64,000 nucleotides of DNA from Convolutriloba macropyga. Taxonomy: Eukaryota. The stretch lies in the NCBI RefSeq assembly GCF_964194025.1, contig NC_134472.1:31434001-31498000 (forward strand). Reading direction: 5' to 3'. The notes below the pieces were generated by a model. That model was not told the DNA's origin, made no database searches, and saw nothing but the letters and a program-made list of their open reading frames with translations. The position numbers and the translations under genes were made by a program. Shown piece after piece: positions 3,001-58,800 of this stretch; within the stretch, counting starts at the first letter, position 1, and every line of letters begins with the position of its first letter.

Positions 3001-3248
3001 CCAGAAAATATAGCTAAAATGAACCGCCATCAGTTAAATTTTTTGACAAAAAATTTTACTTTCCTGTACATTTTTGAAAATCAAAATTTAATAGATATGT
3101 TTTTTTGACATGCGTTAGGTCTCCTCCAATATACTTCTGGGCTACCCACTCGATGAGACATAAGTCTCTTTGGGATGCCCGCCAGGCAGTAACATGTATT
3201 ATTTTACATATTTATATTGCTGTTCTGGTTATATTCAAATTCAAAAAA
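1..3248 (+). mobile_element. Decayed APE-type non-LTR retrotransposon (CR1/L2/Crack group), frameshifted ORF2 plus 3' end
   Basis: ORF fragments 298-831 (NIRSL, SETWL, GGG, CGDFNI = AP endonuclease), 1384-1812 (SSGHDGI, YRP) and 2042-2482 (YGVPQGSVLGP, LFADD = RT), then C-terminal fragment 2749-3108. Followed by a 3' stem-loop and an A-rich end near 3248. Many stops and frameshifts. Confidence 0.93.
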
Positions 3249-33459: not shown

Positions 33460-33594
33460 NNNNNNNNNNNNNNNNNNNNNNNNNNNNNNNNNNNNNNNNN
33501 NNNNNNNNNNNNNNNNNNNNNNNNNNNNNNNNNNNNNNNNNNNNNNNNNNNNNNNNNNNNNNNNNNNNNNNNNNNNNNNNNNNNNNNNNNNNNN
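33460..33594. other. Assembly gap (N run)
   Basis: 135 N. Confidence 1.
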
Positions 33595-34556: not shown

Positions 34557-34689
34557 NNNNNNNNNNNNNNNNNNNNNNNNNNNNNNNNNNNNNNNNNNNN
34601 NNNNNNNNNNNNNNNNNNNNNNNNNNNNNNNNNNNNNNNNNNNNNNNNNNNNNNNNNNNNNNNNNNNNNNNNNNNNNNNNNNNNNNNNN
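34557..34689. other. Assembly gap (N run)
   Basis: 133 N. Confidence 1.
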
Positions 34690-36299: not shown

Positions 36300-39200
36300 C
36301 TGTAATGTATGCAAACCTTTAGAAATTAATACTAAATCTTTAATAATTTTACTCCATTTTGATTTTGTTAAAATTTTCTCCACATTTTCTAAAAAATATC
36401 AAGTTGTTTCTCATCAACTATTGTGAAGAAATTGCATTCTGTATAAGCAATCAATTTCACAATTTTTTCATCATTAGATTTTCTGAAGACAATTTTTTCG
36501 ACGATCCCAGTTATTTGATTTTTGTTTACTCACATGCAATTTTAGGTTCAATTTTCCTATAATTGAATTTTTTGTTGTCTTCCTTTGCTTCTCATTCATC
36601 TCTTTTACAGTTGTTCAAGATTATCCGTACTAGTTGGCAGAAAAAAGTTATACCAAAAGTTTTACTGAAAATGTTTGATGCTCTCCACTTGCGACTATCA
36701 GTAGTAGTTGGAGAGCTGCCTCTTTTTCAGATTTTGCCAAATTGCCGTCAGGTTTCCAATATTTGTGAACAAAATAATTGATTAAGAAGTTTAGCATCAT
36801 TGATATTGGCCCGATAAGAATAGACTTTTTCCAGTTGTGTAATTGTGTATTTTTTTGACTGACACTGTCCGGATTGTTTGCAAATCTCGTAATATTTGTT
36901 CTACGACTTCATTTCGTTCGTCAAATGAGAGTCTTTGATACACAGGAAGACGTGCCATTTTAAAATGAGTTTACTCAATAAAATGTTAACATGCATTTAC
37001 TATTGTTGCCATATGAAGCTAATTGTCAATCGCATGTATTTTAGCAATCAAAAACTTGAGTGGGTCAGTAATACCTATGTCAATACTGTTGCCTGTCACT
37101 TTCTAACCCAAAAATATGTCCGCTCAAAATTCAGGAAATGTTGCCTGAATTTTCATTCAACACTCAAAAGGGATTTTCTATAGTGATGCCAAATTTTTCC
37201 GGGTTATTGGATCATTTTCTCTCATTCTTTTTTTTTGCTGACTGAGCTACATATAGGTAGTTGAAATGAATTGTATATTGAAGAGCTGGCCCGCGAGTCC
37301 TTTTGTTAGCCAATGGAACGTGTATAGCTTTGTAGAGATTTAGAACTGTTGCATCTGAAATCATTGGGAATATCAATGTTTTCCACAATATCCCCGTGTT
37401 CAGGTATTTCCGCTTTATCATATGCTAACAGCGGATTTGTTGACATCGTAGGTGATAATCGTTTGTTTGTAAGTTTTTGCAAACTGACTACTATTTCAAT
37501 AATTTTTCAAGCACTCTTCATGAAAGTAGTTCAGTTCGTACTTAATTTTTGACCTTTGTAAATACGGGACTAAAAAATGTTAGCCTGTAGCTAAAAACTG
37601 CTGGAAAGTATGAACTGATTTCACTTAACAGAGCAGATGACAGTACCATTAAATTGGTTTGCACTTGTAATACTTGGTCAAGGGTCTAGACGAGTCGATT
37701 GCAAATCTTCCTTTTTTTGAAGTTTTTAATATCAAGGTAAATGTTCCATTGAAAAACTCTGGCTTTTTTGGGATGCAATAGTTTTTGTGTTGAAAATTGT
37801 CCACATTTTCTGAGCGATGAATGACATTGCACATATTATCTTTGTTTTTCCTTTAATTTTAAATAATCGTCTATTGTATTTTCCATTTGATTCAACGCAA
37901 AATCACTGTTTTCTCTGTTTTGATTTCCCCTCCGCAAAAATAAAAGTTGATACCCAATGAGCAATCATTTGCCGAACATAGAGTGGCTGTTTTCAGGGCT
38001 GCAAATGCGATCATGGCTGAATGTTTTTGTCTAGACATTACTTTTTCTGTAAGTTTATTTTGCTCTCCAAGTGTTTTGTAAATTAGGGCATTTATTTTTA
38101 ACATTTTCACTTGAATTATTGAACGCGTGTGTGTGAATTATTGTTTGCAAATCTCGTAATATCGGTTCTACGACTTCATTTCGTTCGTCAAATGAGAGTC
38201 TTTGATACACAGGAAGATGTGCCATTTTAAAATGAGTTTACTCAATAAAATGTTAACCTGCATTTACTATTGTTGCCATATGAAGCTAATTGTCAATCGC
38301 ATGTATTTTAGCAATCAAAAACTTGAGTGGGTCAGTAATACCTATGTCAATACTGTTGCCTGTCACTTTCTAACCCAAAAATATGTCCGCTCAAAATTCA
38401 GGAAATGTTGCTTGAATTTTCATGCAACACTCAAAAGGGATTTTCTATAATGGAGCCAATTTTTTCCGGGTTAATGGATCGTTTTCTCTCATTCTGATCA
38501 AACACAGATTGAAGTTAGAGGTTGCGATGTAATGATATATTTGCCTTTGCCAGTGTTTCGAGCCTTTTCCTCGACGGCAGCTTCATAGATCTTCTTTCAC
38601 ACTTCCGGCAAGCACTGAAAGGACTGCCTAAAAAAGGGATACCAAAACAATTATCACAAGCAGTTTAAAACTAGAAGCCATTATACCAAATTGGAGAAAT
38701 TGCTTGAATCTACGCAACTGTCAATAAAATTTTTCGATACAAGAACAATTTTTTTTATTGTTGACTGAGCTACATATAGGTAGTTTAATTAAATTGTATA
38801 TTGAAGAGCTTGCCCTTGAGTCCTTTTGTTAGGCATTGGAACGTGTATAGCTTTGTAGAGATTTAGAACTGTTGCATCTGAAATCATTGGGAATATCAAT
38901 CTTTTCCACAATATCCACGTGTGCAAGCGTTTCCGCCTCATCATATGCTAACAGCGGATTTGTTGACATCGTAGGTGATAATTGTTTGTTTGTAAGTTTC
39001 TGCAAACTGACTACTATTTCAACATTTTTTCAAACACTCTTCATAAAAGTAGTTCAGTTCGTACTAATTTTTTGACCATTGTAAATATGGGACTAAAAAA
39101 TGTTAGCCTGTAGCTAAAAATTGCTGGAAAGTATGAACTGATTTCACTTAACAGAGCAGATGACAGTACCATTCAATTCGTTTGCACTTGTAACACTTGG

Positions 39201-39950
39201 TCATGGGTCTAGACGAGTCGATTGCAAATCTTCCTTTTTTTGAAGTTTTTGATATCAAGGTAAATGTTCCATTGAAAAATTTTTTGGGATGCAATAGTTT
39301 TGTGTTGAAAATTGTCCACATTTTTTGAGCGATGAATGACATTGCACATTTTATCTTTGTTTTTCCTTTAATTTTAAATAATCGTCTATTGTATTTTCCA
39401 TTTGATTCAACGCAAAATCACTGTTTTCTCTGTGTTGATTTGCCCCTCCGCAAAAATAAAAGTTGATACCCAATGAGCAATCATTTGCCGAACATAGAGT
39501 GGCTGTTTTCAGGGCTGCAAATGCGATCATGGCAGAACGTTTTTGTCTAGACATTACTTTTTCTGTAAGTTTATTTTGCTCTCCAAGTGTTTTGTAAATT
39601 AGGTCATTTATTTTTAACATTTTCAATTGAATTATTGAACGCGTGTCATTTTCAGTTAGCTCTTTTCACTGTAGGATCACATCTGCGTTCTGATTGACAT
39701 CACAAATTGTTCGAAAGCCTCAATAGGGCTTAGGTGTGCTGGCAAGCGGCCAAACTCAGAAATTTTTAATTGTTCGGTCTATATTTATAATCAATTTTAT
39801 CTTAAAAATATAATGAGTTTTTTCAATCTCACCTGTTTCGCAAAGATAGATTGATCTACTGTTTCAACCATATTTGGGTTAATCTTGTGTAGTAGATTCC
39901 TCTGTTTCAATTAGAATCTCTACATAATTGTTGACAAAAATCTCATTAGT
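36300..39950 (-). pseudogene. Decayed class I (F-type) viral envelope-like gene with internal tandem duplication
   Basis: Furin-like site RQKR followed by hydrophobic SAMIAFAAL..CS..CSLG..FCGG. Downstream LIFPMISDATVLNLYKAIHVP and EKARNTGKGKYIITS remnants. Many frameshifts. Confidence 0.6.
36873..39646. repeat. Direct tandem duplication (36873-38130 and 38140-39646)
   Basis: Near-identical ORF-track peptides occur in both copies. The left copy lacks ~255 bp present at ~38495-38750. Confidence 0.97.
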
Positions 39951-40118
39951 GAGCTCTGACATAAATTGTTTTACTTTTAACAATGTATAGACGTTTCTGA
40001 TACTCACTGACGTTTTGACTGATGACGTTTCACAAGCCGCGTTCCTAATTTTTTCAGAAAATTTTTGTTTTTTGAACTATATATTTTGAATATTTTGTTA
40101 TGCTAATATCATTTATGT

Positions 40119-40425
40119 AGTAAGCCAGAACCTAAGTGGGCTACTTTTACAGACTTCTGGTTTAAAGAGCTAGGGCTACTTATTTTTGCACGCGAAATAG
40201 GCTTACCTATATCTCTCAGACTAACAGACTCTGTAAAACAAAGAAGGTATATTTCAATTATAACGATGTACAAAAGAGTTCACACCGGAGTCAGAGGTAT
40301 ACACATTGTGCAACTACTCTAATAGACTGACTACAGTCGGCAGAGTTACTGCTATATAAAAAAGAATAGTGTCTTCTTAGTCTCTGATTGGTTGGCGGAG
40401 CACATCCAGTATTTCTAATGCTACA
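40119..40425 (-). repeat. 3' LTR
   Basis: Direct repeat of 55496-55802. The left boundary is uncertain by a few bp and no exact TSD was found. Confidence 0.92.
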
Positions 40426-40439
40426 TCCATCCGGGGTTT

Positions 40440-42930
40440 AGAGTTTTAAATCCGGATCTGTGAGTTGTATCGGAAATACGTCAGATGAGTGATCCTCGTT
40501 GTAGATGGAACTGAAGAAGAGCCGTGTTGTCGTGGCAGTGAAGTTGTGACCTGTGCCGTCGTCTAGAGTCCCTGTTAGTAGAGTGTTGACTAATGTCGTC
40601 AGTAAGTTATCCACTTCAGATGTGGTGCCAGTTACAGGGTGTGCTGGCCAATAACGTCAGTCCTGTCGAGCGTACCCAACTGTCTCTCACCGTTATGTAG
40701 TGAGGATTTACTCCCAGTTGGAGGATCGCTTTTAGTCTGTAGTCTCTGTCTAGTTGAACAAGGTGATTTCTGTTCATCTCCATCTGGTTCCGGGTTTTAC
40801 CGGTCAGATTTAACAGCTTACCTTCAGTTGAAAATCAATCTTTTAGCTACTGTGTGAGTTACTGGTTCTCTTAAACTTTTTGTGAGGTTTAGTGCCTGCT
40901 GAGTAAGCTCTGACCGGAGAAAAAAGAAAAGAACAGAACCTAATCTTCTTTTTAATTGTGGCAAAGAAGAAAAGAAAAAAAAGATTAAATACAGTGAAAA
41001 TAAAAAGAAACATAGAAATAAAGAAAAGATAACTTAACATGAGTTTGAGAACAGTGAGCCTCAAGTTTTGTGGGTCAGTGAGTACCAGTGGTAGGACTGT
41101 GGCTTACGTCTGGAACTCGAATTCGAAATCAAGGGCTCGGTTGTCCGGATCCCTGAAGAATTCAAGAAAATCCTTGTCTCGTGCAAGAAAAGCGGCAAGC
41201 GCACGTGTGTAGAGATCGATGTTGATGTGGGGTTGCAACGCTAGAAGGTGGTTGAGGATCTGTGTTCCATCTGGTGTTGGTTCCAGAATGGCCAGCTTGT
41301 CCACCATCCAGTCCCTGTAGGGGAGATTGATTGTGTGTCCGTACATGCGCGTTGTTGCGCCTCGCTCTACACGCTAAAAGTATTCAATGAGGACAAGGAT
41401 CGGGCGATGCGTTTTCGCGTAAAATGGGACAAACAAGAAATAATTTTTAATAGGGTCGAAGTTGCGGAGTGTTTCTTCGCAGTAAGTGGGATTAATTGTA
41501 TAGCTATAGTTCCATTAGTAGGTTGACGCGAGTTTAGTGTTGGCATACTGGAGGCGTGAATTCATTTGAACAAGAGCGTTAGTCCAATGAAAGTGGTGTT
41601 GGACGAAGAGATAATTGCGTATTGTGTGTAGCATATTTGTCTTGTTGACTTTGTGAGTTTGTTTGTTTAAATCCATTTAGTTTTTTATGCAAAAAACCAA
41701 ACTAAAGATAGAGGGATTCGTATTTTTGGTACAAGCGGTAGGGGGTGACATCTTTCGTGAAAAGTGTTTTCAGATAGTTGTTCTGACAATCTGCTAGTGC
41801 AACGAAATATTTGGATAGGTGCCAAAAACGCTCTGTGAAGCGGGGAAAAATTGTAAATTGAAGGCACTCCAGTGGGAGTTCCCTAAACCGTCCTGCTTCT
41901 ACATACTCCTTTCTCAACTGTCACAATGAGAATGAGCTTGCCGTTGGTTTCAACGTGTGGCGGAGTGAAAACATAGTTAATCCTCTTGGGGAAATAAACA
42001 CCCTGATCCCTGTTGATGCCCAGAGAGTTTGTGAATTGTAGAAATTTAAATTGTGGACCCGTTGCTTTGTGTAGCACTCCTTGTGTAGGGGCGAAGGGGT
42101 TGACTAGACCCATTGAAAATGGGGTCTGTGGGCCTCTGGAAGGGCTGGCGATGTACCGTGCAAGTGATTGTGAGGCCTGAATTGGGGAAGAGGGGACCGA
42201 GTAGATCTCATGCTTCATAGTCCTGGGCCGTCTCTTTGGGTAAGGATCCGTGCAAAAATAATTTTCGGTTGATGTCGGCCGATCATAAGGAGGGGTTGGG
42301 GGAAGTCAGTTGAGCTCAATTTGTGGGATTGCTGGTCCATAACTGTGCACTGGTGGAGTGTTAGCTACGAATGACAATGGTATGGGCGTCACTGGTGGTG
42401 GGTAGGTCATTGGCTGGCTACGCGGTCTCGAATTCGGCTTGATTAGGCTCAATTGGGGACCACTGTTTTGGGTGTTCAGCGGCCCGATTGTTACGCAGCG
42501 ACATCATCAGCCCAGGGAGAGCTTTATGGGGGTTGAGTTGGTAGCTGTGGCGCCAAAATGACGGCTGTGATGCCAGTGAAAATAGTTGTTGTGACTTTGG
42601 CACCGGCTGGGAGGCTTGGAACAAAAGTTATTGTGACGAACTTGTGGATACCATTTGTGTTGGCGGGCTCCTGTTGCTCTCGATGTATGAATGTAATTCC
42701 CCTGACAACGAAAAAGAAGTGGCGGGTGAAGGCAACGTATTCACCGGCGCATGAGTTGCTGAGTCCACGAACTGTGGCTATGGAGAAGCTTGGGCCAACG
42801 TGAAGAGGGTCAGCGTTTGCATCTCGCACACAAGTTCTGGTACGGGGGGAGGCAGCACCAGAGGCGTAAGAGTGGAAGGCAGGATGTCGTCGACATCCAG
42901 CATTATGAGGTCGTAAGCCGTAGGGTCGAC
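40440..42930 (-). pseudogene. 3' accessory ORF block (GC-richer, Pro/Thr-rich, unassigned)
   Basis: Fragments 42524-42829, 41883-42218, 41702-41917 and 41104-41346, preceded by a strong splice acceptor. Confidence 0.55.
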
Positions 42931-43299
42931 ATTTGGTGGGATGGGTGACCCTCCCTCTTGTTTGCCAGGAGTGAGAGTTGCGGTGTCGCTAAAATAAATT
43001 AAAAAGTTAAATTTGAGTATTTGATAAGTTTGAGATCAGTTCTTATGGGATTTCCTGACACTCAGGAACATTCTCAAAAAATCCTCAGAAAATGATATTG
43101 AACGTTAGCATTTACGTTTTCTAGACTGAAAAGTGTGTTAATGCAACGACTGAAAATCAAGATTTCGATGTGATTCTATCGGTAACTCAAAGCATTCATT
43201 TATAAATGTGGGGAGAGTAGAGGCCTTGTGCTTTTTGGAGTTATTGTCTACTGGAGAGGAAAATTTTTTATAAAAATTCTCAAACTTTCAGCGAAATAG

Positions 43300-45593
43300 A
43301 TTCAATCAATTTTGAGAATTCGAAGTGCTAATATCGACAGAGTGCTCACGTCTTGTCTCAGGCGATGGTGGGTTTTTTGTGTAGCGTCTGATTGTATTAC
43401 ATGAAAGATTGTCCGTGAGAATACTCCAAGAAATTCAGAAGTGATAATCTCAGCTAATGTGATATGCGGACTTGAGAGTGATTTGAGATTGTATGCGTTA
43501 AATGCGCTACAAAATAGTGCAAATAGGCATTTTTAAAAACTAAATACAGTCCATATATTAGCTATTTCTTTCAATAAGTACCAAGTATATCCAAAGATTC
43601 CGATGAAGGATTTTTTTCAATAGTTGCCGTTGATTAAATCACGCCAACCGAGACGGCAAAGTGTATTTTTTTTCTTAATAAAGAATTTGTTAAAACAATT
43701 GTTGTAACGACTTTGTAACTGTAAGAATTGTGCTTGTAATTGTCTGCAAAATTAACTGCTTGTGCTAATTCAAATTGCTCGGCGCCGTCATCTACTAATT
43801 GTTAAATTTATTTTTTTCTATTGAATTTGTCCAGTCTCTTTGACTATATATGCCAAGTTGTTCTGCAGTAAAAACCGCGTGGGTGAAGCGGTTTTCAGCT
43901 TCGTCAGGGGTGAAATTTTCAACGGGGTTTTGAGCTCTAAATGGGTAAGGCGTTAAGCGGAATGACTCATCACCATCTGGATCGAGTAATATTTGTTGAT
44001 CAAAATTTCAAGCTCTACATAGTGTTTTAATAGACCAAGGAAAAGTCTTGCGTGTTACTTGATCTACAAATTCAAGTTTATTTTGATAAAATATGGTAAT
44101 AAGTTCCAAAGATTGGTTTTCTAGATCATAAAGTGGCGAAGAGATAGTTCTACCTTGAAAAAGTGAAAGCACATCTGATATTATTAGCGTAGCGAATGTA
44201 TTTCGCTGTCCTGTGATAAAATATCCAACAAGTGAAAGTTTTTGTGTTAACAGAAAAGGGGCGGTCTGTATTAGATCTCTTTATAGAGTTTTTTATAATA
44301 AACTGATAGATTTTTGTAGTACAATTAAAATTAAACTCTGCTGTTCATATAGTCGAAATTAGCGTCAATCTGTACATTAGGATTAACAGCACCGAACCTA
44401 TTTTGTTTTTATTAAAAAGATAGTATTTTTCAGTTTTACGGTATATTGGAAATTCTTGTGGAAACCTCGTTACGGATATCTGCTTTAGTGTACCGTGTTA
44501 TTGAAGGTGCTTTATTTAGTACGGCTAAGTGTACGTCCTTAAATTTTGTGAAGGCTTTGCAGTGACAAAATTAAAACCTTCGTGTTTTTTGTATAAAAAC
44601 ATCTTGATATTGTGTTCCGTATCAAAGGTGATCCTCATTGCATATATAAATAGGTTTAGTGAGTACTTCATAAAGAGAGAATGCTAATTCATCATAGAGA
44701 TGGTTTTTTTGAAAACAACTATTAAACCTGTGTGCGTTTCATTATTTGCTAGTGTTTCATTAAAATGGAGTTTTTGAAATTTAATCATGCGTGCGTGAGA
44801 TCCACCAACCTCAATACTTCGAAAAAGAATATTTGGTTCCCAAATGAATTTGGCTTTAATAGCGTGATTAGGAGGGTAATAGCCTCTCAAAAGATCACAT
44901 TTATTACGTGTTTTATCATAATGGACACTTTCTGATTTAACTTCCAAACTAAGCGTGATGTTAGTTAATTGAAGTAACCATCTTAGTGTGTTATATGATA
45001 TATAACATAATTCCAAGTTTGAAGGCAAATGGTCGGTGGCGATCCAGCTGAAAACGGCCTTGTTTGGCTTCAGTGTTCACTTGCCAGCGTGGGTCGTTAA
45101 GTACATCAAATTGTATCATCTGTGCGTGTTAGTGATGTTTACTCACGAAACCAACGCGAGCAAAATCTCTACGAGCTTCAATTTCTGTGGGGAAGGAAGT
45201 TCTTTCCATATCGTTAACCTACCAATTATCGTGATCAAACCGGAAGCCCCTCCTAAGTGAGGTTTTGTGGTACAAATTTCTGTCGCAAAGTTATGCATAT
45301 ATAGCGTACGCGCGTACTTGAAGTGTTCGAATTTGTGAGAAGATAAAAACTTGCGCAGGGAGTATCTGGAAGTCTGCCGGTTTGATCTTACATTGGCCAA
45401 TCTTATTGAGTTTATAATACTGCATAATTGTGATATGCTGTGGTGAGCAATCATAGTGTGTTACAATTAAATCCTGAAATCCTGATTTGGGAGTAGAAAC
45501 GTTGCAATTATCAACCTTAATTGTTTGTTTTATGGGAAGTAAGAATAAAAAGAATAAATTAATTAGAAATAAGATCAAATTTGTAATAGTCAT
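43300..45593 (-). pseudogene. env: env: chuvirus/herpes gB-like (class III) glycoprotein, disrupted
   Basis: Signal peptide, then HYDCS...YKLNKIGQC, CDLLRGY....IWEP, ICNED..YGTQY.D.FI, ELITIFYQNKLEFVDQVTRK..C, QLGIYS. A hydrophobic remnant lies near 43500. Confidence 0.7.
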
Positions 45594-45699
45594 GTGTAAG
45601 AGAGTCCAGAGTGTGGGATGTAGAGGACCAAAAATCCTGCAGTGTTTTGTGTTTATCTATCAAATTTAAAGTGAATTTCTTGACAAATAAAGGATGAGG

Positions 45700-47676
45700 G
45701 ATTTGTTTTTACTCTAATTATAGCCGGAGCAGCAGCGTGTGGGTGAAAAATTAGTTTATCTTGTTCGACTACTATCTCAACAGAGAAATTAATCTTAGAT
45801 TGTTCAAGCATATCGTGTGCTCGTTGTGTTTTTACTGGTGTAATCTTGTATGATTTAGAGATTCGTTGTTTTGCGCAATTGTATAATTGTTCAAGGTTAT
45901 TATGATCTTCAAAAAGGCAGGTGGAAGAACTATAATTTTTGGATCTTTTTTAAATGCTTAAGTTGGGTAAGTTTGAGTGGCGTCAGGTTTTTTTTCCGAT
46001 ACATTTGAGAGAATGTTGGTCTGGATCTGGTGTGGGTGAATTTGAACTAAGAGTATTTATAGTTGGAGTACCCTGGATACTAAATGGTAGTGAGCTTTGA
46101 AAAGAAAGAGACGAATTGACTATATTGAATGAGTGAGTCCGGTGAGCTTGTGAAAGCAAACTTTCAATATTAGATACTGGTCCTTGTGGCGGATAAAAAG
46201 GATTATTTGCAATTTGTGAGGGAGTAAGTGACAAAAAATGTGAACTAATTGGATCAGAATTAAAGATGTCAGAGACATGACTGGTTTCTTGCGGAGCAGC
46301 TGCTATTGTAGAAACAAAATGAAGTGGCTGTGGCAATTCAGAACTACTAGTTTTATCTGTTAGCAAAATTAATCGGTTGAGTCAAAAATTGTGTTTTATT
46401 GGAATAATCAAGCAGTTCTAGTTCTTGTGCTCGTAGTGGAGCAGGTATGAATGGTGTTTGTTGTTGTAGAGTTGCGTTTATAAGAAAACTTGAGTATGGC
46501 AGAAAAGTTTGTGTATTTTTTTGTTGTTGTTGTGGTGTTTGCGCTTGTTGTATTTGCGTTTGACTTTGAGAGGTGGATATCGGATTACTAACTGAGGGGT
46601 AAAAAGGGGGGGGGTTCCTGTAGGACGAGGTCTATCTGTAGTTGTGGCAATAGTTTTGACTGAGTATGGATGTTCTTCTTTTTATTAAATAGTTTAAATG
46701 ATGACTTTTTAGGGATGGATTGTTTGGTAGTGTCACTGTACGAGCAACTTGGTGATTCTGAGACGGAGGTAGCTCTTGGGTTAGTATCGGGTTGTTGATT
46801 AGAGTACGCAATTTTGACGTTAATCGTTGGTCCAGAGTGGGGCAAAAATTACCATAGAATATCTTATAATGAGTGAAAGATGGAATAACAATTATTAATA
46901 AATTTATAGTAGGAATAATAAATTGGATTGCTGCAACGGTTGAATCTGGAGGGAGGACATTGTGTTGATAGATGAGATCTAAAAACTCAACAATAAAAAC
47001 TGTTAACAACTCTTCGAGCAAATGGTGTAATTTTTTTGAGAAATAATAGACAAATATTGAAAGGGTTGGTGATTCTGTTCTGTTTTTTTTAGAGTTGTTG
47101 GATTGTTCATCAAACATAAAAAGTTCTTCGTAAGAAGCTGGGACAGCATCCACTTTCAAAGTGTATACAATATTGTTATAGAGAAATTCACATAATTTGG
47201 GTGTTGATTGTGGAGGAAAAAGTGGAAGATAGAAGAGAGCAATATGTTTGTTGTTAAAGTCCCTTATATAAAAGACCCATTAACAACAAGTGTGTGGATA
47301 TAGTTGCTGGTCTAGGTTATAGAAAATATCTTGCAAACGTATTTGTTTTGTTTTAATATTTTGAATATACCATAAAGTATCAGCGTATGGGGTTGGTTCT
47401 ACAAAATAACACTTCAAGTCTGTGTTGTGAAGTAATTTGAATACTGTTTGTTCTATGAAGATCAGTTTGACTTTCAGTGCTGTGAGACTGAGAGTTGTGG
47501 ATTTTATGGAGGTGTACGCTGCTGTGAGCGAGTCTGTTCAATTTGTCCGTCTGTGAGCTATTTGATACTGCTTTTTTGTAGAGCTTGTTTGGACTAAGAA
47601 CTGTGCTGTGAGACAGTTCTGACTTTTCGAGAAAGAAAGTGAAAATTCCGGAAACAGAATTTTTTTTAGGAAACAT
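45700..47676 (-). pseudogene. Unassigned ORF block between integrase and env (globular part followed by Pro/Ser/Gln-rich part)
   Basis: Consecutive minus-strand fragments 47380-47676, 46632-47159, 46588-46845 and 45983-46366. Confidence 0.5.
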
Positions 47677-48293
47677 AGAAATTTTTATCTAAGTTAAGAA
47701 ATGAGATAGAGTGAAAAAGCGAGAGAGAAGTTGATAGAGTGAAGTTAGAATTTTATATTCAAAAAATAAGACAGAGAAGAAAGAAACATTTGAGTTGCAA
47801 ACAGGGTGGTCTGTGAAGTGACTTTAGACAATGCAGTTTAGCCTGACTACTACTTTTCTTAGGGGAGAAAAAACTTACCGAATCATACCTCGTTAAATTA
47901 TTCAGATTGGAGAATTATTCGCAGGCCGATCTGTGGGTAGGCTACTAACTTAAGTTTTGGTTTATTTACTTTCTTTTATTGTCGTCGGGAATGGCCTATA
48001 ATTCCCTATTTTTCATTTTCTGATGGAAGTTTATTGTGTTTCTGCCAGGGTAGCAGGTGGAAAGATAGTCCTCATGCTTTGTTCGCCTTATGGAGGGTCT
48101 TTGTTATTTTTTCCAAGGAAAGGTATTGTGAAGAAAATGAGAAGGGTGAAAGAACTATTCGAATTATCCCACTCGTATAAAAAACTGGGAAATTATAATT
48201 TTAGTCTATTTCTATACGGGGTGTTTAGTGTGTTATGCTAATTTGCATTGGGCTAAGGAGAGCGAGAGGCAATTCTGTGTGTTGCAGTAGTGG

Positions 48294-48325
48294 TATATAC
48301 ATACATACATATATATATATATATT

Positions 48326-48350
<25 letters not shown>
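48294..48350. repeat. (TA)n microsatellite
   Basis: Seen directly in the sequence. Confidence 0.95.
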
Positions 48351-48358
<8 letters not shown>

Positions 48359-48649
48359 ATATATGTATGTGTGTTTGAGAACTCTGCGTTGTTCTTGAAG
48401 CCCAAATTTTTGACTGTGATATGAAGGCTCTGTAATCTTTTGTCGGTTGTTTACGTGAACGATTGTCTCTAGTATTGTAGTTTTTCGAACTTTTTTCGGG
48501 TATTTCAGACAAACTGTAAGATGGCGGGGGAAAGTTCATTATTTGATGGTATGTCTGGGTTGTTTAGACTAAACGAGACAGATTTCGACTTTGTGATAGC
48601 GGGTTTTTTAGGGTGAAGTCGTAAAAATGAGTGGTCGGAAAAGTATTTT

Positions 48650-51600
48650 TCCTTCTGTTCTTGAATGAAGAGTTCTTTAGGGTAATATTAGTTACTTCGG
48701 TGATGGGTTATTTGTTTACCTGAAAAGTCCTCTAGTTTATATGTGACTAAAGTGGGAGTATCAATTATTTTGGAGGGTCCGACCTTTTGTAGTTGGATCT
48801 TCCTTGAAGTACCAATTTGTGGATTTTTATTTACATTAGTAACATAACTGTTAATTTTAAGTGGTTGAACCGTTCCGAACCGGCAATTTATGAACGTGCC
48901 TAAATGTTTATTCCCATTTAAATAAATTTGGAATTCGTTATACACTTCTGAGTGTATTTCCTCGCGATTTAGAAACCATTGTGCAAAGGTTCCTTCTCTT
49001 TTTTAATTTAAACTTTTTAATTTGGCGATGATGTTTAAGATGATTGATTTCTGTATGTTTTGTGAAGGAGTGGCACGGTGAGTTTTGTGAAGTCCGGGAG
49101 TTGCCAAAGCTATCTCTAGTTGAAGATAGAGTAAACATTTTTGGCTTTTTGGTGTTATGTCAAAGACGAGTTCATAAGGTGAAAGGTTCATGTTTGTTCT
49201 AATTTGTGAGTTAAATTCGAAGGGAAATGTTTTCAGCTTTTAAGACCATGTGTCGTACTGTGAATTTAAAACTGTGCATAAAAATGTATTTGGTTGGCGA
49301 TTGCCTTTTTTCTACTAGTCCATTGGACCGTGGTGCACTCAGTGTGCGTGGTTTAAATTGTACGTTGTATATGGGGCAAAATTGTGTAATTTCGCCCTTA
49401 ATAAAATGATTTCCATTATCAGTTACTAGAATATCAGGTATTCCGAATATAACTATCCAATTATCGAATAGTAACTTTAATGCTTTTGCTGCATCATTTT
49501 TCGGATTAGGACGGAGGACAACATTGTGTGTGAATGCATCAACAATTACATATACATAAGAGTTTCCGTATGAAGGTGGAGAGATTGCGCCTTTCGGGTC
49601 TAGAGAAATACAGTGGTTGAATTAAGGTGAAACTTTTTAAAATGGCTGTTGTGGTACCATAATAAGATTTGGCATGGTTAAGCTGGTTTGGCAATTTAAG
49701 CAATCATGTGTAAAGATTGCTATCCATGTTTTGATATTTGGAAAAAAATATGTTTCTGTTATTGTAGCATAGGTTTTGTCACGGTTGGTATGACCTGAAA
49801 TATCATGTGAATGTGCGACATGCAATACAGTTAGTAGAAAGGAAAGTGGTAAAAATATTTTATGTGATATAAAATAATGATTAGTTCCGTTTATGCTTAG
49901 ATTCGGAAAACGTCTATAATAGTGTAGCAGTCCCTTGATTGCTCGGACTGTTAACGAAGGGAGAGAGGAGCGGTTTTTGTTTTTTTTTGCAAAAAAGAAG
50001 TTGTCTTAAAACAGAATACTTTTGTTGAGTTTCTTGTAAAAATGTATCGGTTACTTCTGTCTGTTTGTCAAAGAAATAACTAAATATTTCTGGTGACTTA
50101 GGTATGAAATCATCCATTGCTGGGAGTGAAAATTTGATGCTATTTATTGAATCTGCATCATTTGCCTTTTGAGTATCTGGTGTGAATGGTTCTGTTTCAT
50201 TTGTATTCAGTGTAACATCTGTTTGTTTTACAATAGGATACGTTTCTAAGTGTGAATTGCCTTGTTTCAATTGTTGTTTTTTGTGATAATGGACAAGTTC
50301 TAGAGGTTGTGCTTTTGTTTTATATTCGTGGTATGAAAGGGGAAGATACAAATTGTTCTCTGGTTGTACTTTAAAATAGTCTTCTTTGATTTGTAGGTAT
50401 ATTGGAAAGTGTGGTGATTCTACAGCAATGTCTGTAGTTACTGTGTTATTGTATTCTTTTGATAAAGCATAGTGGCACTGCATCGGTTGAGTTTGTGGAT
50501 TATGTGTCATTAAGATTTTTATTGTATCGGGAGTTTCTACTATCCGTAGACGATGCACGTTTTGTGTTGTCGTTGAAAGTCAACGACCTAATATATCCGG
50601 AAGTGAAAGGTTATTGCCTTCCGTCCGAACTATAAGTAAGGAAATTTCATATTAGGAAATTTTATAAATATTAACTGGAATTCAAAAATTTTGAGATTTG
50701 GATTGCTCTTTTTATATAAATGAAACGAGCATGGGTTTGTGATCAAAATACAGGATAATATTGTGTTGTGACTCTTGGATAAAAAAATTCATAATCAGAG
50801 AGTGCGTAAATTACTGCAAAACGTTCACCAAGAAAATAAGCGAGAGATTGGGGAAACTAGTTCCAATTTTCCAAATTGTTTGTTCCAAATTGTTTTCCAA
50901 GTGCCGCTCCGATGCTATAGTTTGATGCATAACGTGGAATATAAAAGGGATTATCTGAACTAAGGAACGCTAGGCGTAGAGTGCCATCTGTAATTTTCTT
51001 TTTTTACTCTATCAAATGTTTCAGAGTCCGTTTAAAATTTACCGTATCTCGAAGATGAAGGTAGAAAGTTCTCAATTTAAATTGTAGGTTATAAAAGTTT
51101 TGAGATAAAGTTGAGAAAACCAACATATTTTTGTATTTCTTTTTTATTTTTTGGTGGTTTTAGTTTTAAGAATCCGTCTATTTTTGAAAAAGAAGGATTT
51201 ATTTGAAAGATTTAAGATTACACTTTAAGAATTTCGTTTTTGAGAATATTGTGATATTGTTCAAGTGTTTCCAACATTGTTTCTGTTATAGTGTCTTGAA
51301 CAAAAACATCTTCAAGATATTTGATAATTTAGTTTTTGCGGAATAGTGATTTAAATATACTACTTATAAAGGATGAGAAGACGGCTGGGCCAATAGAGAT
51401 ACCATATAATGAGCCTTTACGTCAAAATTATTGTTCTGCGATGACGAAATTAGTAAGTAGTTGTAACGGTTTGTCTAGCGGCTTTTGATTATATGTTCTA
51501 TTCATATCGGATAAAGAGAAAACTGGGCCTTTGATGCGTGTAAGTATTATTTGTATCAGCCCTATTGGCCAATTACATTTGGTTTTGTCAATCATTGTGT

Positions 51601-52850
51601 TCATCTGACGAGCGTCCAAGACAATTTTAAGTGACTCCCTTTTTAGAGTATAATTACAGGATTAATAAAGTTGTTCCCTGCAGTGAGAGAATCCGTATTT
51701 ACAGCTGCAGCAATATCTAAATGTGTCGACATGTCGAGTAAATGTTATACTCTTTCCTGTAATTGCAGAGGTATACGAGTAACTCGTTGCTTTTTAAATA
51801 CTGCTTCTGCCTTCAAAGAGAGATTTAATTCTACTTTGATTTTTCCTACATCAAATTTAGATGTAGCATAGCAATTTTTATATCTTATTAAAAGTTGTGC
51901 TAATTGTTCAAATTGTGTTTGTTATAGTCTAAAGTGTTCAAAATTGGAGATTGTGAGAAAAATACTGTCTGTTTTTGTGAACGTAGAGATATCAGATAGT
52001 ATGTGGAACGTTTTCTGTTGTGCTTTGTATTCAGGTGCTTGTTGCTTGGTGAGATTTAAGCAATAGAATTTTCTTTAGTGTTTCTGATGTAACGTATGTA
52101 ACGTAATTTAAAGTATAGGCATCCTTGAAATCTCTGAGTTCATTGACATGGTATTTTGTTGTATGAAACTCTTTGATTGAAAAATCTTGTTGCGCGTATC
52201 CAATCAATCAATTAACGAGTGTTAGTGGGTGATCTAAAGATTTTTGTCTAAGAATTTGAATGAACGATTGGTAAGAATATTCGAGTTTACTGATATCCAT
52301 TATAGAAAAACACATATTTCTATGGTGGTATAACTGAGAAATCAGATTTAAAAATTATACTTCCATTTGCATATTTGTTTTCACATTCGTATGCAGTAAG
52401 TGAATAAATTAGGATTTTGTGCTAAAAAATTGGAAAAAGTATGAGTGATCACCATCAATAGGAAATAATCGTGAATAGCATGGAGGTGATTCTGTTGAGC
52501 AATCATAGATATCATAGAAGGATTCAACATATTGTTCTAAAAATTCTGTTCCTAAATTAAAAAATTTTGGGTTTGAAACGTGAAAGGTGAGTTTTAAATT
52601 TAAATTAAGAGAAATCCTGTGTTCCGTTACCTCTGGTTAAAAAATAAGCTTTACTGATCCATTTGATTGTAATTTAGTGTTATTTGCTGCAATGCTGATG
52701 CTTTCAATTGTAATTCGTGGTACTCTCTGATTTCATTCCAAGTGTCTTTATCTAATACATTAAGCATTAAATGTAGCCCCCGAGTCTATTAACAAATCAA
52801 TTCCAAGTTGTGGTGGAGAAATTGTATTTGTAAAGTCGGGTGTCTGTTGT
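48650..52850 (-). pseudogene. pol: pol: protease, RT, RNase H, integrase (disrupted)
   Basis: LLIDSGAT at ~52786; YGISIGPAVF and YLEDVF at 51319; RNase H (Y)ASNYSIGAAL and DHKP; HHCC HSHDISGH...CLNCQ; IPDILVTDNG; GP-motif VGPSKII. Confidence 0.92.
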
Positions 52851-52999
52851 GTATACATTGTAAGTTGTTGTAACCAAGTATTACTTTCACACGATGCAGA
52901 ACGGATATATTCTTCTATGAGAGTATCTCATTTTTCCTGACAATTAAAATATACGTCTTGTGTATCTTAATTTAGTTCAAAAAGTAAATAATTGAATTG

Positions 53000-55303
53000 T
53001 TGTTCTAGAAGTTGTGCTTCTGAAACACTTTGTGTTTCCATATGTTCTATGTTGGACGTTGTATCATCTGTTTGTTCTATACGGTTGTTCTAGAGGTCTG
53101 GTCTAGAAGTGAATTAATATAATTTCTAAGGCGATTACGTAGAAGAGTCGTTGTGAACGATTACCATCTCTATTATAATTAGGTGATTGTGGTCTAGAGT
53201 TACTAGAGTAATTGTTGTTATTATTAAAGTTGGGCTTTTTCTGGGAATTTAGTTGTCTTGGGTAGGTTGAATCTGAACTACTTGGTGGCTTAAAGTAATC
53301 GTTTCCATAATAAGGTTTTGAGTTTGTAATTGATGATTTATTAGGACTTATGTGTCGAGAAGTGTCGCGATTGTCTCTACTGTTGCTCCTAGAGCGATAG
53401 GGTCATGGTAGTGTTTTAGCAGTCATATTCTTTGATGTGACTTGTCTGTTCGGGAGATTTTGATTCCCTTTCGTTACTTGATTGAAAGGTTGTTTTGAAA
53501 ACTTAGGTGTATCAATTGGTTTTGCATATTATTTGTCAGGGCAAATCGAAATACTTTGTCCTGATCATGAACATTTTTTACTAAATTTAAGGAAGAGTGG
53601 TTTTCTTTTAAACTTTGGATTATTTGAGCACTTGTGTAGTACTACATTGATTCTGGACTTTGTGAGTGGAGTTTGAGTGGAATTTGTGTTTATTTTTTTG
53701 TCAATCTATGTGTGTTCCAGTGATATCTTCCAGATGTATTTTGTCCACTAATTGATCAAAAGGAATCTGTGGTTCCAATGCAGTTAATTTGAGACATGCG
53801 ATCTTTTTAAGGGCTATTCGAACTAATTGCGAATCAAGTGTTTTGACAAGTGCGTCATTCATTTGTGTATTTCTCATATCAGGAGCATTTTTAACAAATG
53901 CTTTTTGAGCAGTTTCTTCAATTCTAAGTGCTAATGTTTTTATCTGTTCTCGAGAGGCACGCGTTATGCTTTCTAATAGTAATTTCGTATGTTTTTGCGA
54001 ATGTTGGTTATCAAAGGTCTTTTGAAATTCTCGGCACGAACCTTGCCATTCTTCCATAATCTCTAATGGCAAATGTGAATAGCATTGTTGTTGGTCCGAA
54101 TTATGTGTCAGATCAGTTGAATTCACAGGTTGTCTCTGATTTTCCTAAATCTTTTTGTTGCTAGGAGTGTCATTTACGGTAGCATTAGTGTTTATATTAT
54201 TGTTGTTAGTGTTATTGTGTTTTTCAAGGTCAATTAATGAGAGATTGTTTACAGTATCTGATGACAAAAGTGTTTCATCTTCTAATAGTCTGGAATTTAC
54301 ATCTATTTCTGTGGTTTTGTGTCTCTTGATCGTGAAACGACTATAGTCTCTATATTATCTGTAGGTTATTCTTCAAGAAATGTATTAGTGTTTTCTGGAA
54401 TGTTTGTAAAATTGACTGCTTGTTTTTCGGCGTTTTTTTTTAGTTTTAAAATTATTGTTGTCAACTGTTAGTTTTTGAATGATTCCTGATGAAACTTCTG
54501 TAATACTTTTAAAATTTTCAGGAATTCAATTTGAATCATAAATATTGTGTAGTGTTTCCGGCAAATTATCCATCAAGTGTGCGTACGTGTCGCCTATTAG
54601 TTTTGTAGCCTGGAAAATATGTTTTACTAAGCTTTTCCAAATTCTGAATGAGTACCAGGACAAAAGCGCGAGAAAATCTTTTATTTCCTCTTGCGGTAAA
54701 TCTGCGTCTTTTGCAGAGCTTATGTCTGTTTTTAGAAGGTGAGTGAAACCGTCTATTTTTTGTCTAGCAATTTTTTATGCTCGTTTTCTTTTCGTGATTG
54801 TAAAGCGGCGGTATTAAGTGCTGGCGCTAGGCGCTTTAGAAATTCGAATGACAGTTGGTTAAACACAGTTGAAGGTTGTAATTCTGTCTAAACTCCGTTG
54901 AGAAGTTCAAATAATGTGTATGGTAGTGGCTTAAATAATGTAAATCATATATGCATGGAACATAAGTTGTGTTTCATAGATCAGAGATAAAAAGAATTGA
55001 GCCCTTTGTGAGTTGAGCTCCATAAATTTCGATTAAGTGTGAGGGGAAAGCTATTCCTAATATTTGTGAATCTTTATCTGGTAAAGTAAGAAGAGGCTGC
55101 TAATCTATTGCAAAAAAATTGATTTTAGGTTGTTTTGCTGTGTTTAAAAGTAAATTTAATTCGTCTTGGTGATGATGTTGTGCAACTTTAAATGGTAAGA
55201 TTTCGTATATAAGAGTTTTGTTCGGTTGTGTAAGAACAGTTAATTGTAATTTATTGGAATGTGGGTCCGATTTTGATGACGTTTGGCCAGTGTGACGGCT
55301 CAT
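53000..55303 (-). pseudogene. gag: gag region with a long N-terminal extension or separate upstream ORF
   Basis: Capsid-like EQIKTLALRIEETAQKAF segment (53701-54126), degenerate zinc knuckle (S)KKCS*SGQSISIC near 53585-53540, Arg/Ser/Asn-rich tail. Disrupted ORF begins at 55303. Confidence 0.7.
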
Positions 55304-55480
55304 TTTGTTAATACTAGTGAAATTATTTTATTTTCTGAACTATTTGTAGGGTTGTGTTGCCTGTTTTCCTAATTTTAAACGTAAGAAAATTATGAAATTA
55401 TATAAACTAGTTGTAAGTTTCTTTCTCAACAGAGAATAGCTTGTTTTTCGTGAGTTCTTTTTACGGTTAGAGTTTGTTAA

Positions 55481-55496
55481 CTCACTGTTCGCACCA
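55481..55496 (-). promoter_or_regulatory. Primer-binding site TGGTGCGAACAG(TGAG)
   Basis: TGG-initiated sequence abutting the 5' LTR. The cognate tRNA was not identified. Confidence 0.75.
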
Positions 55497-55802
55497 GTTT
55501 AGGCAGACCCGAAGTGGGTTCCTTTTACAACTTTAAGGTATGAATAGCTAGGGATACTGTTTTTGCGCGCGAAGTAGGCTTACTTATATTTCTCACACTA
55601 AACGAATCTGTAAAACACTGAAGGTATACTTCAATTATAATGATGTACAAAAGAGTTTACACTGGAGTCAGAGGTATACACATTGTGCAACTACTCTAAT
55701 AGACTGACTAGAGTCAGTAGAGTTACTGCTATATGAAAGAAAATAGTGTGTTCTCAAACTCTGATTGGTTGGAGGAGCACATCCAGTATTTGTAATGCTA
55801 CA
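55496..55802 (-). repeat. 5' LTR
   Basis: Starts TGTAGCATT on the minus strand. Has a CCAAT box and TATA-like motif. About 85% identical by eye to 40119-40425. Confidence 0.92.
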
Positions 55803-58800
55803 ATAGCTTTGGACAATTTTTGTCCAGTCAAAAAATAGTATGACTAACTTTAAGAATTCTTCATTATATTGATTTTTAACATTTTAATACTATTAGCAAA
55901 TTTGAAATGTTTTTGTCCATACTCTCAGTTTCTGTATTTGAAAATCCTAACTGGTTATTCAAATTTAACAGAGCAGACTAGAATTCAATTTTCCAAAATT
56001 TTCACAAAAAATTATTTTTTTCAATGGCCCAAAATTTAGATCCAAAACCGTTCAATACCAACCCTTAATTGTGCAACTCAGAACTTGGCTTTCAATTTTT
56101 GGGAACAAATCATAGCAAAACATGATCAAATGGGGTCTTCTAGTTTGCTGCGACACGCTTCGGACAACAATCAATCAACTGACGAAAATCACATGCATAA
56201 ACTATATTCATATATTTAGAAGTTAGAGAAGTTGAATTATGGAGATCAATGTTCATTTCTCTCATATAAAAACAAAAATCGCGAGTGTAAACGCTACCCA
56301 ACATTGAGTCTAATCTGCAAAAAAAATCTGGTTTATTGATAGAAGATTAATTTCGTAAAGCTGAGTTTCGATGTTGACAGAGTTTCGATGTCCAGATGAT
56401 AGACGGGTAAATCCGCTTTGAATAAACTCGTCCATAGTCACCACCTTATATACATTACTCAAAACATAGGATGCAAAAACAACGCAGTCTGACTCACCAG
56501 GGGGAACGATATCCGAAGCAAAAATCCTGACAGGGTGAAAAATTTAAGAGAGAGTCACTACCCAACCGTTTTTCACGTAAGCAAATCAGAGTTCGTTTTG
56601 CGTTTCAGCTCTCAATGAGTAGGGCGAGTTCATCAAGTTTATTTGATCTATAGTTTAAATGTAACACCCAAGTATTTGCTCCAAGATTCTCTGTCAAAGT
56701 GGCCGATAAAATTTTGATTTTTTAAATAAATTTTGGTTCATACTACTAAAAGCATTGTTTATCAGATTATGATCCCATTTCTGCGATTAATAAAAATTAT
56801 CAGAATTTATGATTATCTTATTAAACGCAGCGGTTTTTGTCTTTCACTAAAAAGTCGTTTACATCGGCTTTTTCGCCCAAGGTTTTAAATATTCTTGTAC
56901 GGGGTGAAGTAATGACCTCGTTTTTGTATATATCCGTATTTTCAGATGGATGATCTTTCAACTTCATATGCTTCATCGGATAGACATTTTGTTTCTTGTC
57001 ACAGTTTACTATAATAGGCCTTCGACGAAAGACTTTTGAAGGAAGATGCTGAAGCACATTTTTATCGTCTCTTCCTACTTCAGCTCCTTTGCCACCCACA
57101 GCCTGCAACGGATCTTCAAAGGGATCAACCTTTTCAGTATCAACAATTCCAAACACTCAGATGCGTCGGTGATGAACCTGTTCGAGTGCATCAGCTTCGA
57201 GCGAGCGAGAATTCGTAGGTAGAGTTGAATCCGCTTTCTTCTTCGGAGTTTCAGTTTTTTATCGGGACAACATCTACAAAGAAAAGAGCTCGAGAAAAAC
57301 GGATCATGGAATCTTTGGGAACGCCAGTTCTGTCCCGGCAATGAATCTGTTGCCGTCGGGTCTTGGTCCAGTACACTCAATTTCATGCTTACTTCCTTCA
57401 GAATTTACAGACTTAGAAGCTGACTTTACCGAAAAAGGTCATTTTTCTCCTTTTTTCACTGTTCTCTATAAGTTCACCAATACTGATAAAAGATACCAAC
57501 TCTAGTTTACTTGATATGAACGCTCTGATTAGTGACGGTACTTACCGAAGATTGCAAACAGCGAGGGCACAACCTACCCTACCCGGCTTTAAGATTGTGC
57601 TTAGGCGCACAGAAATGGAACACTTCTTTGTCCCCTGCTTTCGATGCTGGAGATTAAATACCATATAACATCAACAAATATGAAATTAAAATGAATCAGG
57701 ATCATAAAGTCTCCAAAATACCCAAGGTCATAAAGTCTACTGTTATTGATACCTACTGAAATTAGTGTTATCTTTAATTTCAGAAGTTGTATACCAATGA
57801 AGCATAAGAAGATCATACAGGATGTTGCACACCACAAGTTTAGAAGAACAAGTAAGTCACGACTTTTCAATGGCAAATTAGAGAAAATTTTGATCAAAAA
57901 ATGAATATACATAGGGTTATGAGACGCAATTTTTCTCAAAAATTTTGGAAAATAGGGGAAAAATTGCAATTGCAGAACACCTGCAATATGCCAGGCAAAC
58001 TTTCAACGTTTTTACAAAGTCTATGGTATTCCTACAACATAGCTGGAACATCAGATTTCGATAGAAGAAAAAAATTAGGAGGACCATGTGCTGCTATCAA
58101 TCTAATTTTTCATACCCGAGAACTTTGTTCACATCTAAATAGCTTTTTGATTTCTATCTTAAATTCCCACGTTTTATACGCGATTAATTTTAGTGGGACA
58201 AACTCCACTAATTTTGGGAAAAATTGCCGAGAATGATTTTCCAGAGTGACAACAACTGTCTGCGTGTTGCGGAGCCTTACAGAAATTTGAATACAAAATT
58301 AAATACGAATGACTTGAGACAGAAAACACACAACTGAAAAAACCCTTCACATATGTCTGCGCAAGCCCACCATCAACACTCGAGACGATTAGCAAAGCCG
58401 AGAATTAACTCTAGATTAGTGCCAAAAATATGTTGCCTCTAACAAAATTTTTTAGAGCATGTTTTTGAATTTTTTAAAAGTTCTCCTAAAACAAAAACCT
58501 TTGAGTTCAAAATTTTTTAGACTTCCATTCAAAACTTCTAATTGTTTCAAAATAGTTAAAATAAAACAAAAACTTAATTAAAAAATTATTTAATTAACAT
58601 TGCACTATTTAACACACATATGGTCCACATGATTCAAGCAATCGCAAACAGTTTCAGTTTTTATATTGACTGTTTTTTATTTGTAGTCTCTCCACTTTAA
58701 AACCTATAATTATTTTATTACATCCTTCCTAGGCATTCTAGAAGATATCCCAAAAATCAAAAGAAGCAAAGTGAGATTCAAATGACCCACCATTTTCCCC

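What the first reader, a model, noticed from the sequence alone, without database searches (positions are those of the whole stretch)
40843..55485. Splice-signal architecture suggesting multiply spliced subgenomic mRNAs in the LTR element
Seen on the minus strand: a consensus donor GTGAGT right at the PBS (55485), and tandem donors GAG|GTATGA (47888) and G|GTAAGT (47878) downstream of several AATAAA motifs after integrase. A strong acceptor tttaactttttaatttattttag lies at ~42930, directly ahead of the 3' ORF block. A 198-nt GTAAGC...polypyrimidine-CAG intron (41107-40910) would, if removed, join ORF 41104-41346 in frame to AYSAGTKPHKKFKR. Inference: accessory genes are expressed by splicing and perhaps from an internal promoter, as in complex retroviruses.
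Basis: partly seen in the sequence, partly recalled or inferred. Interest (0 to 1): 0.7.

Follow-up and report, generated by a model that had tools for sequence, protein, structure and literature searches.

The report
Splice signals in decayed LTR retroelement
A dead, virus-like jumping gene carries an extra gene at its far end that probably was switched on by RNA splicing, as in some complex retroviruses, but only one of the proposed splice sites holds up and no RNA evidence was available.

Summary
All motifs exist on the minus strand of a decayed 15.7-kb LTR retroelement (LTRs 14% apart) with three ORFs after pol; the 3' acceptor ends at 42989, not ~42930. Donor motifs are no more frequent than in shuffles. 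Sites differ in worth. Acceptor 42989 is supported: it follows the env-like stop, marks a GC step, is ancestral in relatives, and the segment behind it changes length by whole codons in 13 of 16 relatives, so coding starts at the AG, 28 codons before the first ATG. The PBS 'donor' lies inside the tRNA-pairing sequence. The 198-nt coding intron is not supported: relatives keep a stop there, read GTAGGC (16 of 17), keep the acceptor in register in only 3 of 11, and intact sister ORFs end at that point. No internal-promoter evidence, no RNA data. Verdict: a spliced 3' accessory gene is likely (0.55); precedents exist (Cer1 CERV, Tor env).

The parts
55497..55802 (-). 5' LTR (starts TG; CCAAT 55768, TATA-like ~55737, TCAGT initiator-like 55707; no AATAAA)
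   Evidence: 44 differences in 306 aligned columns to the 3' LTR; promoter labels are motif readings
55578..55583 (-).
   Evidence: function inferred
55479..55496 (-).
   Evidence: its reverse complement reads as a tRNA 3' end with T-stem (tRNA anatomy recalled; the tRNA itself not identified)
53000..55303 (-). Decayed gag-like region, many stops and frameshifts
   Evidence: only a sub-threshold PNMA hit, E 0.099; label mostly by position
48400..53050 (-). Decayed pol: protease-like DSG motif, RT, RNase H-like, ~220-residue unassigned insert, integrase
   Evidence: RVT_1 E 1.3e-5 and RT_RNaseH_2 E 0.17; Integrase_H2C2 E 5e-10 and rve E 3e-8; best solved match foamy virus integrase E 4e-9; insert unassigned
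48290..48380 (.). (TA)n microsatellite after pol
47873..47886 (-). ATG (47886-47884), two codons plus 2 nt, then donor GTAAGT at 47878: candidate start-codon exon, phase 2
   Evidence: chance 0.09 across the element, 0.005 within the pol-ORF-A gap (region chosen after the fact); conservation untested
47623..47800 (-). T-rich tract with acceptor-like sites at 47689 and 47623; 47623 is in phase 2 with the ORF-A frame
   Evidence: speculative
45653..47621 (-). ORF-A, decayed extra ORF of ~650 codons between pol and env, unknown family
   Evidence: 3 stops in 422 codons from 47621 vs 12-14 in the other frames; no Pfam hit; no homolog found for its frame-0 start
43007..45593 (-). Decayed env-like ORF: hydrophobic signal-like start at 45593, stop at 43009-43007
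   Evidence: no Pfam or PDB match, model unusable; the env label rests on position, size and a recalled motif
42989..43011 (-). Splice acceptor: branch-like TTAAC overlapping the env-like stop, T-rich tract, TAG at 42991-42989
   Evidence: most T-rich of 58 acceptor-like sites; GC change point 42989, interval 42982-42994; kept in relatives
41104..42988 (-). ORF-C, decayed 3' accessory ORF (~630 codons): Pro/Ser-rich N-half, conserved C-terminal domain of unknown family; ends at the stop 41106-41104
   Evidence: 109 hits, 16 hits; P0254 spans 553 residues of it in one frame; intact distant relatives P0094, P0090
40910..41107 (-).
40816..40821 (-).
   Evidence: same reading in 2 of 2 relatives that reach it
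40121..40425 (-). 3' LTR, preceded only by GGATGGA
   Evidence: loose ends pile up at 40425 in three runs

Best explanation
The window holds a dead copy of a large, Ty3/gypsy-type LTR retroelement family with three ORFs after pol. When the family was active, the last ORF (ORF-C) was most likely translated from a spliced subgenomic mRNA: acceptor at 42989 directly behind the env-like stop (shown: ancestral motif, coding starts at the AG), joined to an upstream exon that brought the start codon (inferred), best candidate the ATG at 47886 with donor 47878 (phase fits; inferred), probably preceded by a leader exon from the LTR donor at 55583 (inferred), i.e. the exon 1-2-3 layout of HTLV tax/rex. 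ORF-C ends at its own stop at 41104; the T-rich 198 nt behind it are untranslated. The PBS GTGAGT is a by-product of tRNA pairing. ORF-C most likely works as a regulator of the element's RNA or expression (disordered N-half plus conserved domain; analogy only).
For: Acceptor: most T-rich of 58 candidates; GC steps from 0.36 to 0.53-0.57 at the AG, not at the first ATG 42903. In 16 relatives the residue over the AG is Ser in 10, Arg in 1, an alternative-frame reading with TTAG in 1, Thr or Gly (AG lost) in 2, and 2 start later. AG-to-anchor spacing is 11, 14, 15, 16 or 17 codons in 13 of 16, 1 is frameshifted, 2 unassignable: five length classes, all in frame. The internal Met is absent in 3 of 16. 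Of 12 donor-like sites upstream of the acceptor, 47878 is the only one with an in-phase ATG within 3 codons. 198-nt segment: 9 of 28 aligned rows end exactly at that stop, 5 just before, 11 read through with mixed residues, 3 are misaligned frames; other-frame readings imply GTAGGC in 16 of 17 (one spurious row dropped); acceptor 40910 in register in 3 of 11; all 120 listed members of the intact sister ORF family end in the same 8-residue tail, which aligns near this stop. Precedents: PMC10309623, PMC4402516, PMC4488940 (passages read).
Against: No RNA examined and no junction seen: none of the 15 listed joints or 12 listed 5c rows matches a predicted junction (1586 and 153 not shown; DNA-type contigs). 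Motif counts are at chance level. ATG-plus-donor at 47886/47878 is seen in this one copy only; its chance anywhere in the element is 0.09 and the search for relatives there failed. Relatives were recovered as open frames, which favours in-frame cases. In the relatives recovered the ORF-C frame is open upstream of the AG and several have a Met at about 43071 overlapping the env-like tail (P0247, P0249, P0254, P0259; absent at that place in P0248, P0251, P0256, P0258), so an unspliced start is possible. Intact sister ORFs carry their own Met. The codon over the AG is inferred from amino acids, not read from DNA.
Confidence: 0.55

Rival explanations
1. ORF-C is expressed without cis-splicing from its own start (Met near 43071 overlapping the env-like tail, or 42903) on a transcript from a local internal promoter, as for env in Tor3b/4b; the T-rich stretch is just the junction between two genes.
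For: Open frame and Met upstream of the AG in 4 relatives plus the window; intact sister ORFs have their own Met; precedent in PMC4402516.
Against: That Met is missing in 4 other relatives; the GC step sits at the AG; branch-like motif 18 nt upstream of the AG; no promoter-like signal tested positive anywhere internally.
Confidence: 0.2
2. The acceptor is real but its partner is another donor (LTR donor 55583, the PBS GTGAGT) or a spliced-leader RNA in trans; translation starts at 42903 and the ATG at 47886 is chance.
For: LTR donor present in both LTRs; Met at 42903 kept in 13 of 16 relatives; chance of the ATG-donor pair 0.09.
Against: Neither LTR nor PBS donor has an in-frame ATG in any phase, which leaves the frame-preserving length changes before 42903 unexplained.
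Confidence: 0.15
3. One reading: PBS donor, two tandem donors behind an internal promoter, and a 198-nt intron that adds a basic C-terminal tail to ORF-C.
For: All motifs are present; 40910 is the best pyrimidine-rich acceptor-like site by combined score in this copy; the T-rich segment is family-wide; GTAGGC still starts with GT; the 65 codons stay open in only 5% of shuffles.
Against: Conserved stop, weaker donor in 16 of 17, acceptor in register in 3 of 11, about 70-80% of laid depth shows other letters at 40935 and 40938 that put a second AG 24 nt upstream, tail peptide not conserved, intact sister ORFs end there.
Confidence: 0.07
4. The 198 nt are coding for a membrane anchor and the TAA is a decay mutation.
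For: Read-through gives a hydrophobic run followed by lysines.
Against: The stop is ancestral and relatives change frame inside the segment.
Confidence: 0.03

Closest known systems
HTLV-1 tax/rex doubly spliced mRNA (exons 1-2-3)
   Same: [quoted passage not shown] That exon 3 lies behind env is recalled.
   Different: No sequence relation shown; here an extra ORF-A lies between the ATG exon and env, the unspliced frame stops at once, and junctions are inferred, not observed.
C. elegans Cer1 (Ty3/gypsy) CERV
   Same: LTR retrotransposon with an accessory regulator made from a spliced mRNA (PMC10309623, abstract and passages).
   Different: CERV is a five-exon product sharing sequence with Gag; ORF-C lies behind the env-like ORF; no homology tested.
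Oikopleura Tor elements
   Same: Downstream ORF expressed by splicing from the LTR (Tor3a) or from an internal promoter (Tor3b/4b) (PMC4402516, passages).
   Different: Concerns env only; no further accessory ORFs in the passages read.
env-carrying Ty3/gypsy 'errantiviruses' of metazoans
   Same: gag-pol-env order, PR-RT-RH-IN, tRNA PBS (PMC13524379, passages).
   Different: Two more ORFs here; the text has no hit for 'splic', 'subgenomic' or 'accessory'; this PBS was not found in its 7 supplements held as text; env class not established here.
Foamy viruses (Spumaretrovirinae)
   Same: Best solved-structure match of the integrase; accessory ORFs between env and 3' LTR and a donor in R upstream of the PBS (recalled).
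   Different: The PDB holds few retrotransposon integrases, so rank is no classification; no second RNase H found; no internal promoter shown.

Membership tests
LTR retroelement, Ty3/gypsy order | Direct LTRs, PBS, pol order PR-RT-RH-IN | tested here: met
   (protease by motif only, RNase H sub-threshold)
LTR retroelement, Ty3/gypsy order | RT phylogeny inside Metaviridae | not tested
   no named reference set was fetched
LTR retroelement, Ty3/gypsy order | TG...CA ends with 4-6 bp target duplication | tested here: inconclusive
   TG start in both LTRs; 3' end and TSD not clean
env-carrying Ty3/gypsy (errantivirus-like) | env with F-type or gB-type fusion ectodomain | tested here: inconclusive
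   signal-like start; no Pfam/PDB hit, pLDDT 39
Retroviridae / Odin / lokiretrovirus | Dual RNase H (tether plus new RH) | tested here: inconclusive
   one gypsy-type RH-like stretch; the 221-residue insert before integrase has no RNase H hit; feature from PMC9040795 passages
Troyka | CG...CG termini and 3-bp TSD | tested here: not met
   LTRs start TG; feature from PMC12440569, first fifth of the text read
Complex-retrovirus expression plan (tax/rex-like) | Accessory ORF 3' of env beginning at a splice acceptor | tested here: met
   (sequence inference)
Complex-retrovirus expression plan (tax/rex-like) | Start codon on a conserved internal exon | tested here: inconclusive
   present and in phase in this copy; conservation search empty
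Complex-retrovirus expression plan (tax/rex-like) | Multiply spliced mRNAs observed | not testable with these tools
   no run on record as RNA was listed
Foamy-type internal promoter | Transcription start inside the element | not testable with these tools
   only a motif-similarity test, negative

The most novel reading that the evidence does not exclude
A large family of non-retroviral LTR elements independently evolved a complex-retrovirus expression plan: one start-codon exon behind pol, spliced alternatively to two unrelated accessory ORFs (acceptors 47623 and 42989) on either side of an env-like gene, with ORF-C a new regulatory protein family that is still intact in hundreds of young sister elements.
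Probability: 0.25. Interest if true: 0.72.

Novelty: new variant of a known kind. Interest (0 to 1): 0.46.

Why it matters
Spliced accessory genes are the mark of complex retroviruses and are documented in few retrotransposons (Cer1). A 15.7-kb element with two extra ORFs and a tax/rex-like exon plan would be a further, independent case, and ORF-C defines a protein family without Pfam, Atlas or name annotation that is intact in many sister copies (255 hits), so the question can be settled with host RNA alone. As it stands the plan is inferred from decayed copies.

Tried and rejected
No whole genome held, so no copy-by-copy DNA alignment. No RNA holder listed; this is no evidence either way. 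Contigs of 4 of 5 listed runs laid on 40000-56000: thousands of related pieces, but only 40 of 6683 letter rows and 15 of 1601 joints shown, none at a predicted junction; absence not shown. Viral contigs and JGI metagenome contigs: nothing. Rfam on 39500-56500: only sub-threshold hits, mostly on the (TA)n repeat. No tRNA gene in the window. Atlas: no usable hit for P0094 240-543. Structure models unusable (pLDDT 39 and 31), so no fold search was run. Homolog search from the ORF-A start: 41 candidates, none scored. Similarity between the LTR promoter part and 48400-47850: matched or beaten by 14-19% of 437 control tiles, rejected as internal-promoter evidence. AATAAA motifs: common on both strands of this A-rich element, given no weight. 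Earlier scan notes: none. Host not identified; a guess checked only by a search listing was dropped. Six paper searches answered listed no description of this family; without a host name this is weak.
Full report
1. What is there. The finding lies in one LTR retroelement on the minus strand, 55802 to about 40121. Its LTRs differ at 44 of 306 aligned columns and every ORF is broken by stops and frameshifts, so this copy is old and dead. Order: LTR, PBS (55496-55479), gag-like region, pol with RT (RVT_1, E 1.3e-5), an RNase H-like stretch (E 0.17) and integrase (H2C2 E 5e-10, rve E 3e-8), a (TA)n repeat, then three ORFs: ORF-A (about 47621-45653), an env-like ORF (45593-43007; label by position, signal-like start and a recalled motif, not confirmed) and ORF-C (42988-41104). 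Thousands of related contigs lay on the element in three runs, so the family is large. The host was not identified.

2. The observation. All motifs are present; the 3' acceptor ends at 42989, not ~42930. As a class they are not above chance: GTRAGT 3 vs 3.4 expected, GTRAGY 8 vs 6.0, T-rich acceptors 3 vs 1.7. Each site therefore had to be judged by position and by relatives. No genome and no RNA were available, so conservation was read indirectly, from proteins predicted on other decayed copies in all three frames. Codons are inferred from residues, not seen.

3. Acceptor 42989: supported. It is the most T-rich of 58 acceptor-like sites downstream of 47878. A branch-like TTAAC overlapping the env-like stop lies 18 nt upstream, and the best single GC change point in 43600-42400 falls at 42989 (interval 42982-42994); GC is 0.36 upstream, 0.57 between the AG and the first ATG at 42903. 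In 16 relatives the residue over the AG is Ser in 10 and Arg in 1; one alternative-frame reading contains the TAG directly; 2 have lost it; 2 start later. The distance from the AG to a fixed anchor is 11, 14, 15, 16 or 17 codons in 13 of 16, with 1 frameshifted and 2 unassignable. Five length classes in frame suggest that the 28 codons before the first ATG were translated, so the start codon came from upstream, joined in phase 2. Caveats: open frames are favoured by the search, and several relatives have an open frame and a Met near 43071 overlapping the env-like tail while four others lack it there.

4. Donors at 47888 and 47878: reinterpreted. The 'first donor' GTATGA contains an ATG (47886) that is followed by two codons plus 2 nt and then GTAAGT. 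This is phase 2, the phase the 42989 exon needs, and it is the only one of 12 donor-like sites upstream with an ATG within three codons. Chance is 0.09 anywhere in the element and 0.005 within the non-coding gap after pol, a region chosen after the fact. The same phase fits an acceptor-like site at 47623 that opens the ORF-A frame (3 stops in 422 codons), but one of two candidates fitting is not significant. Conservation could not be tested. The layout resembles HTLV-1, where exon 2 holds the Tax and Rex initiation codons (PMC4488940, passages).

5. PBS donor: explained without splicing. GTGAGT is positions 12-17 of the 18-nt PBS; its complement reads as a tRNA T-stem (anatomy recalled). It has no in-frame ATG upstream. 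It may still be used, but it is no independent evidence.

6. The 198-nt intron as a coding join: not supported. The in-frame join is trivial since both flanks share a frame. Of 28 rows aligned in the ORF frame, 9 end exactly at this stop, 5 just before it, 11 read through with mixed residues (Y, W, L, Q, E, R) and 3 are misaligned; readings in the other two frames imply GTAGGC, a TAG stop and weaker donor, in 16 of 17 (one spurious row dropped). Of 11 relatives that reach 40910, 3 keep the AG in register, 6 read Gly there (AG lost or shifted by one base), 1 Ala, 1 is deleted, and the tail peptide is not conserved. About 70-80% of laid depth shows other letters at 40935 and 40938, adding an AG 24 nt upstream. 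Intact distant relatives end near this stop, all 120 listed with the same tail. Relatives also change frame inside the segment, which rules out a membrane anchor. It is 3' UTR; a UTR intron, perhaps with the conserved donor at 40821 (2 of 2), is not excluded. In its favour: 40910 scores best among T-rich acceptor-like sites in this copy.

7. Internal promoter: no evidence. AATAAA is common here; a resemblance to the LTR promoter was matched by 14-19% of control tiles.

8. Reads. Contigs of X1, X2, X4, X5 behave as genomic DNA. None of the 15 listed joints matches a predicted junction, but 1586 were not shown; this neither supports nor refutes.

9. Mechanism and odds. Shown: element anatomy, ancestral acceptor motif, ancestral stop at 41104. 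Inferred: translation from the AG onward, start codon from 47886, leader from the LTR, regulatory role for ORF-C (no Pfam, Atlas or usable model).

10. Comparison and novelty. It works like the tax/rex plan of deltaretroviruses but is not shown to be a retrovirus: dual RNase H and env class are inconclusive and no tree was built. Spliced accessory or env mRNAs are known in Cer1 (PMC10309623, abstract and passages) and Tor elements (PMC4402516, passages); the survey of env-carrying Ty3/gypsy elements (PMC13524379, passages and 7 supplements searched) does not treat splicing. PMC9040795 (passages) and PMC12440569 (first fifth) supplied family features. Supplements of preprints and subscription papers were not visible. 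Rating: new variant of a known kind, interest 0.46; 0.72 if the one-exon, two-acceptor plan is confirmed by RNA (probability 0.25).

Noticed in passing
window 40624-40750: Non-coding-looking stretch near the 3' LTR with LTR-like contig depth (X1 about 2100-3000 vs about 50 at 40509) and loose ends at 40624 in three runs: shared by many more elements than the rest, perhaps a cis-acting RNA element or part of non-autonomous copies. No Rfam hit.
   Followed up: partly
P0094 and P0090 families: Intact 543-aa and 599-aa distant relatives of ORF-C (26% identity in alignment); 255 hits for P0094, the 120 listed 84-100% identical: young, high-copy sister families with an unnamed protein.
   Followed up: partly
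P0036: A relative joins the env-like region (window 44094-43942) straight to about 41340, a deletion copy whose ends are not at the proposed splice sites.
   Followed up: partly
window 49914-50579: About 220-residue insert between RNase H and integrase with no family match.
   Followed up: partly
window 40440-40650 (-): GC-rich 70-codon open frame just before the 3' LTR, and only GGATGGA where a polypurine tract is expected; no AATAAA in either LTR.
   Followed up: no
window ~300-3200 (+): Decayed endonuclease/reverse-transcriptase (non-LTR) element, recognised by eye in translations printed; label recalled.
   Followed up: no
window ~10300-11000 (-): Apparently uninterrupted ORFs resembling ATP synthase subunit c and a phosphopantothenate-cysteine ligase (by eye; labels recalled, positions rough).
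   Followed up: no
window 27900-31000, 59600-60900, 36873-39646: Tandem arrays of about 170-nt and 70-75-nt units, and a 1.3-1.5-kb duplication at 91-98% identity; N gaps at 33460-33594 and 34557-34689.
   Followed up: no
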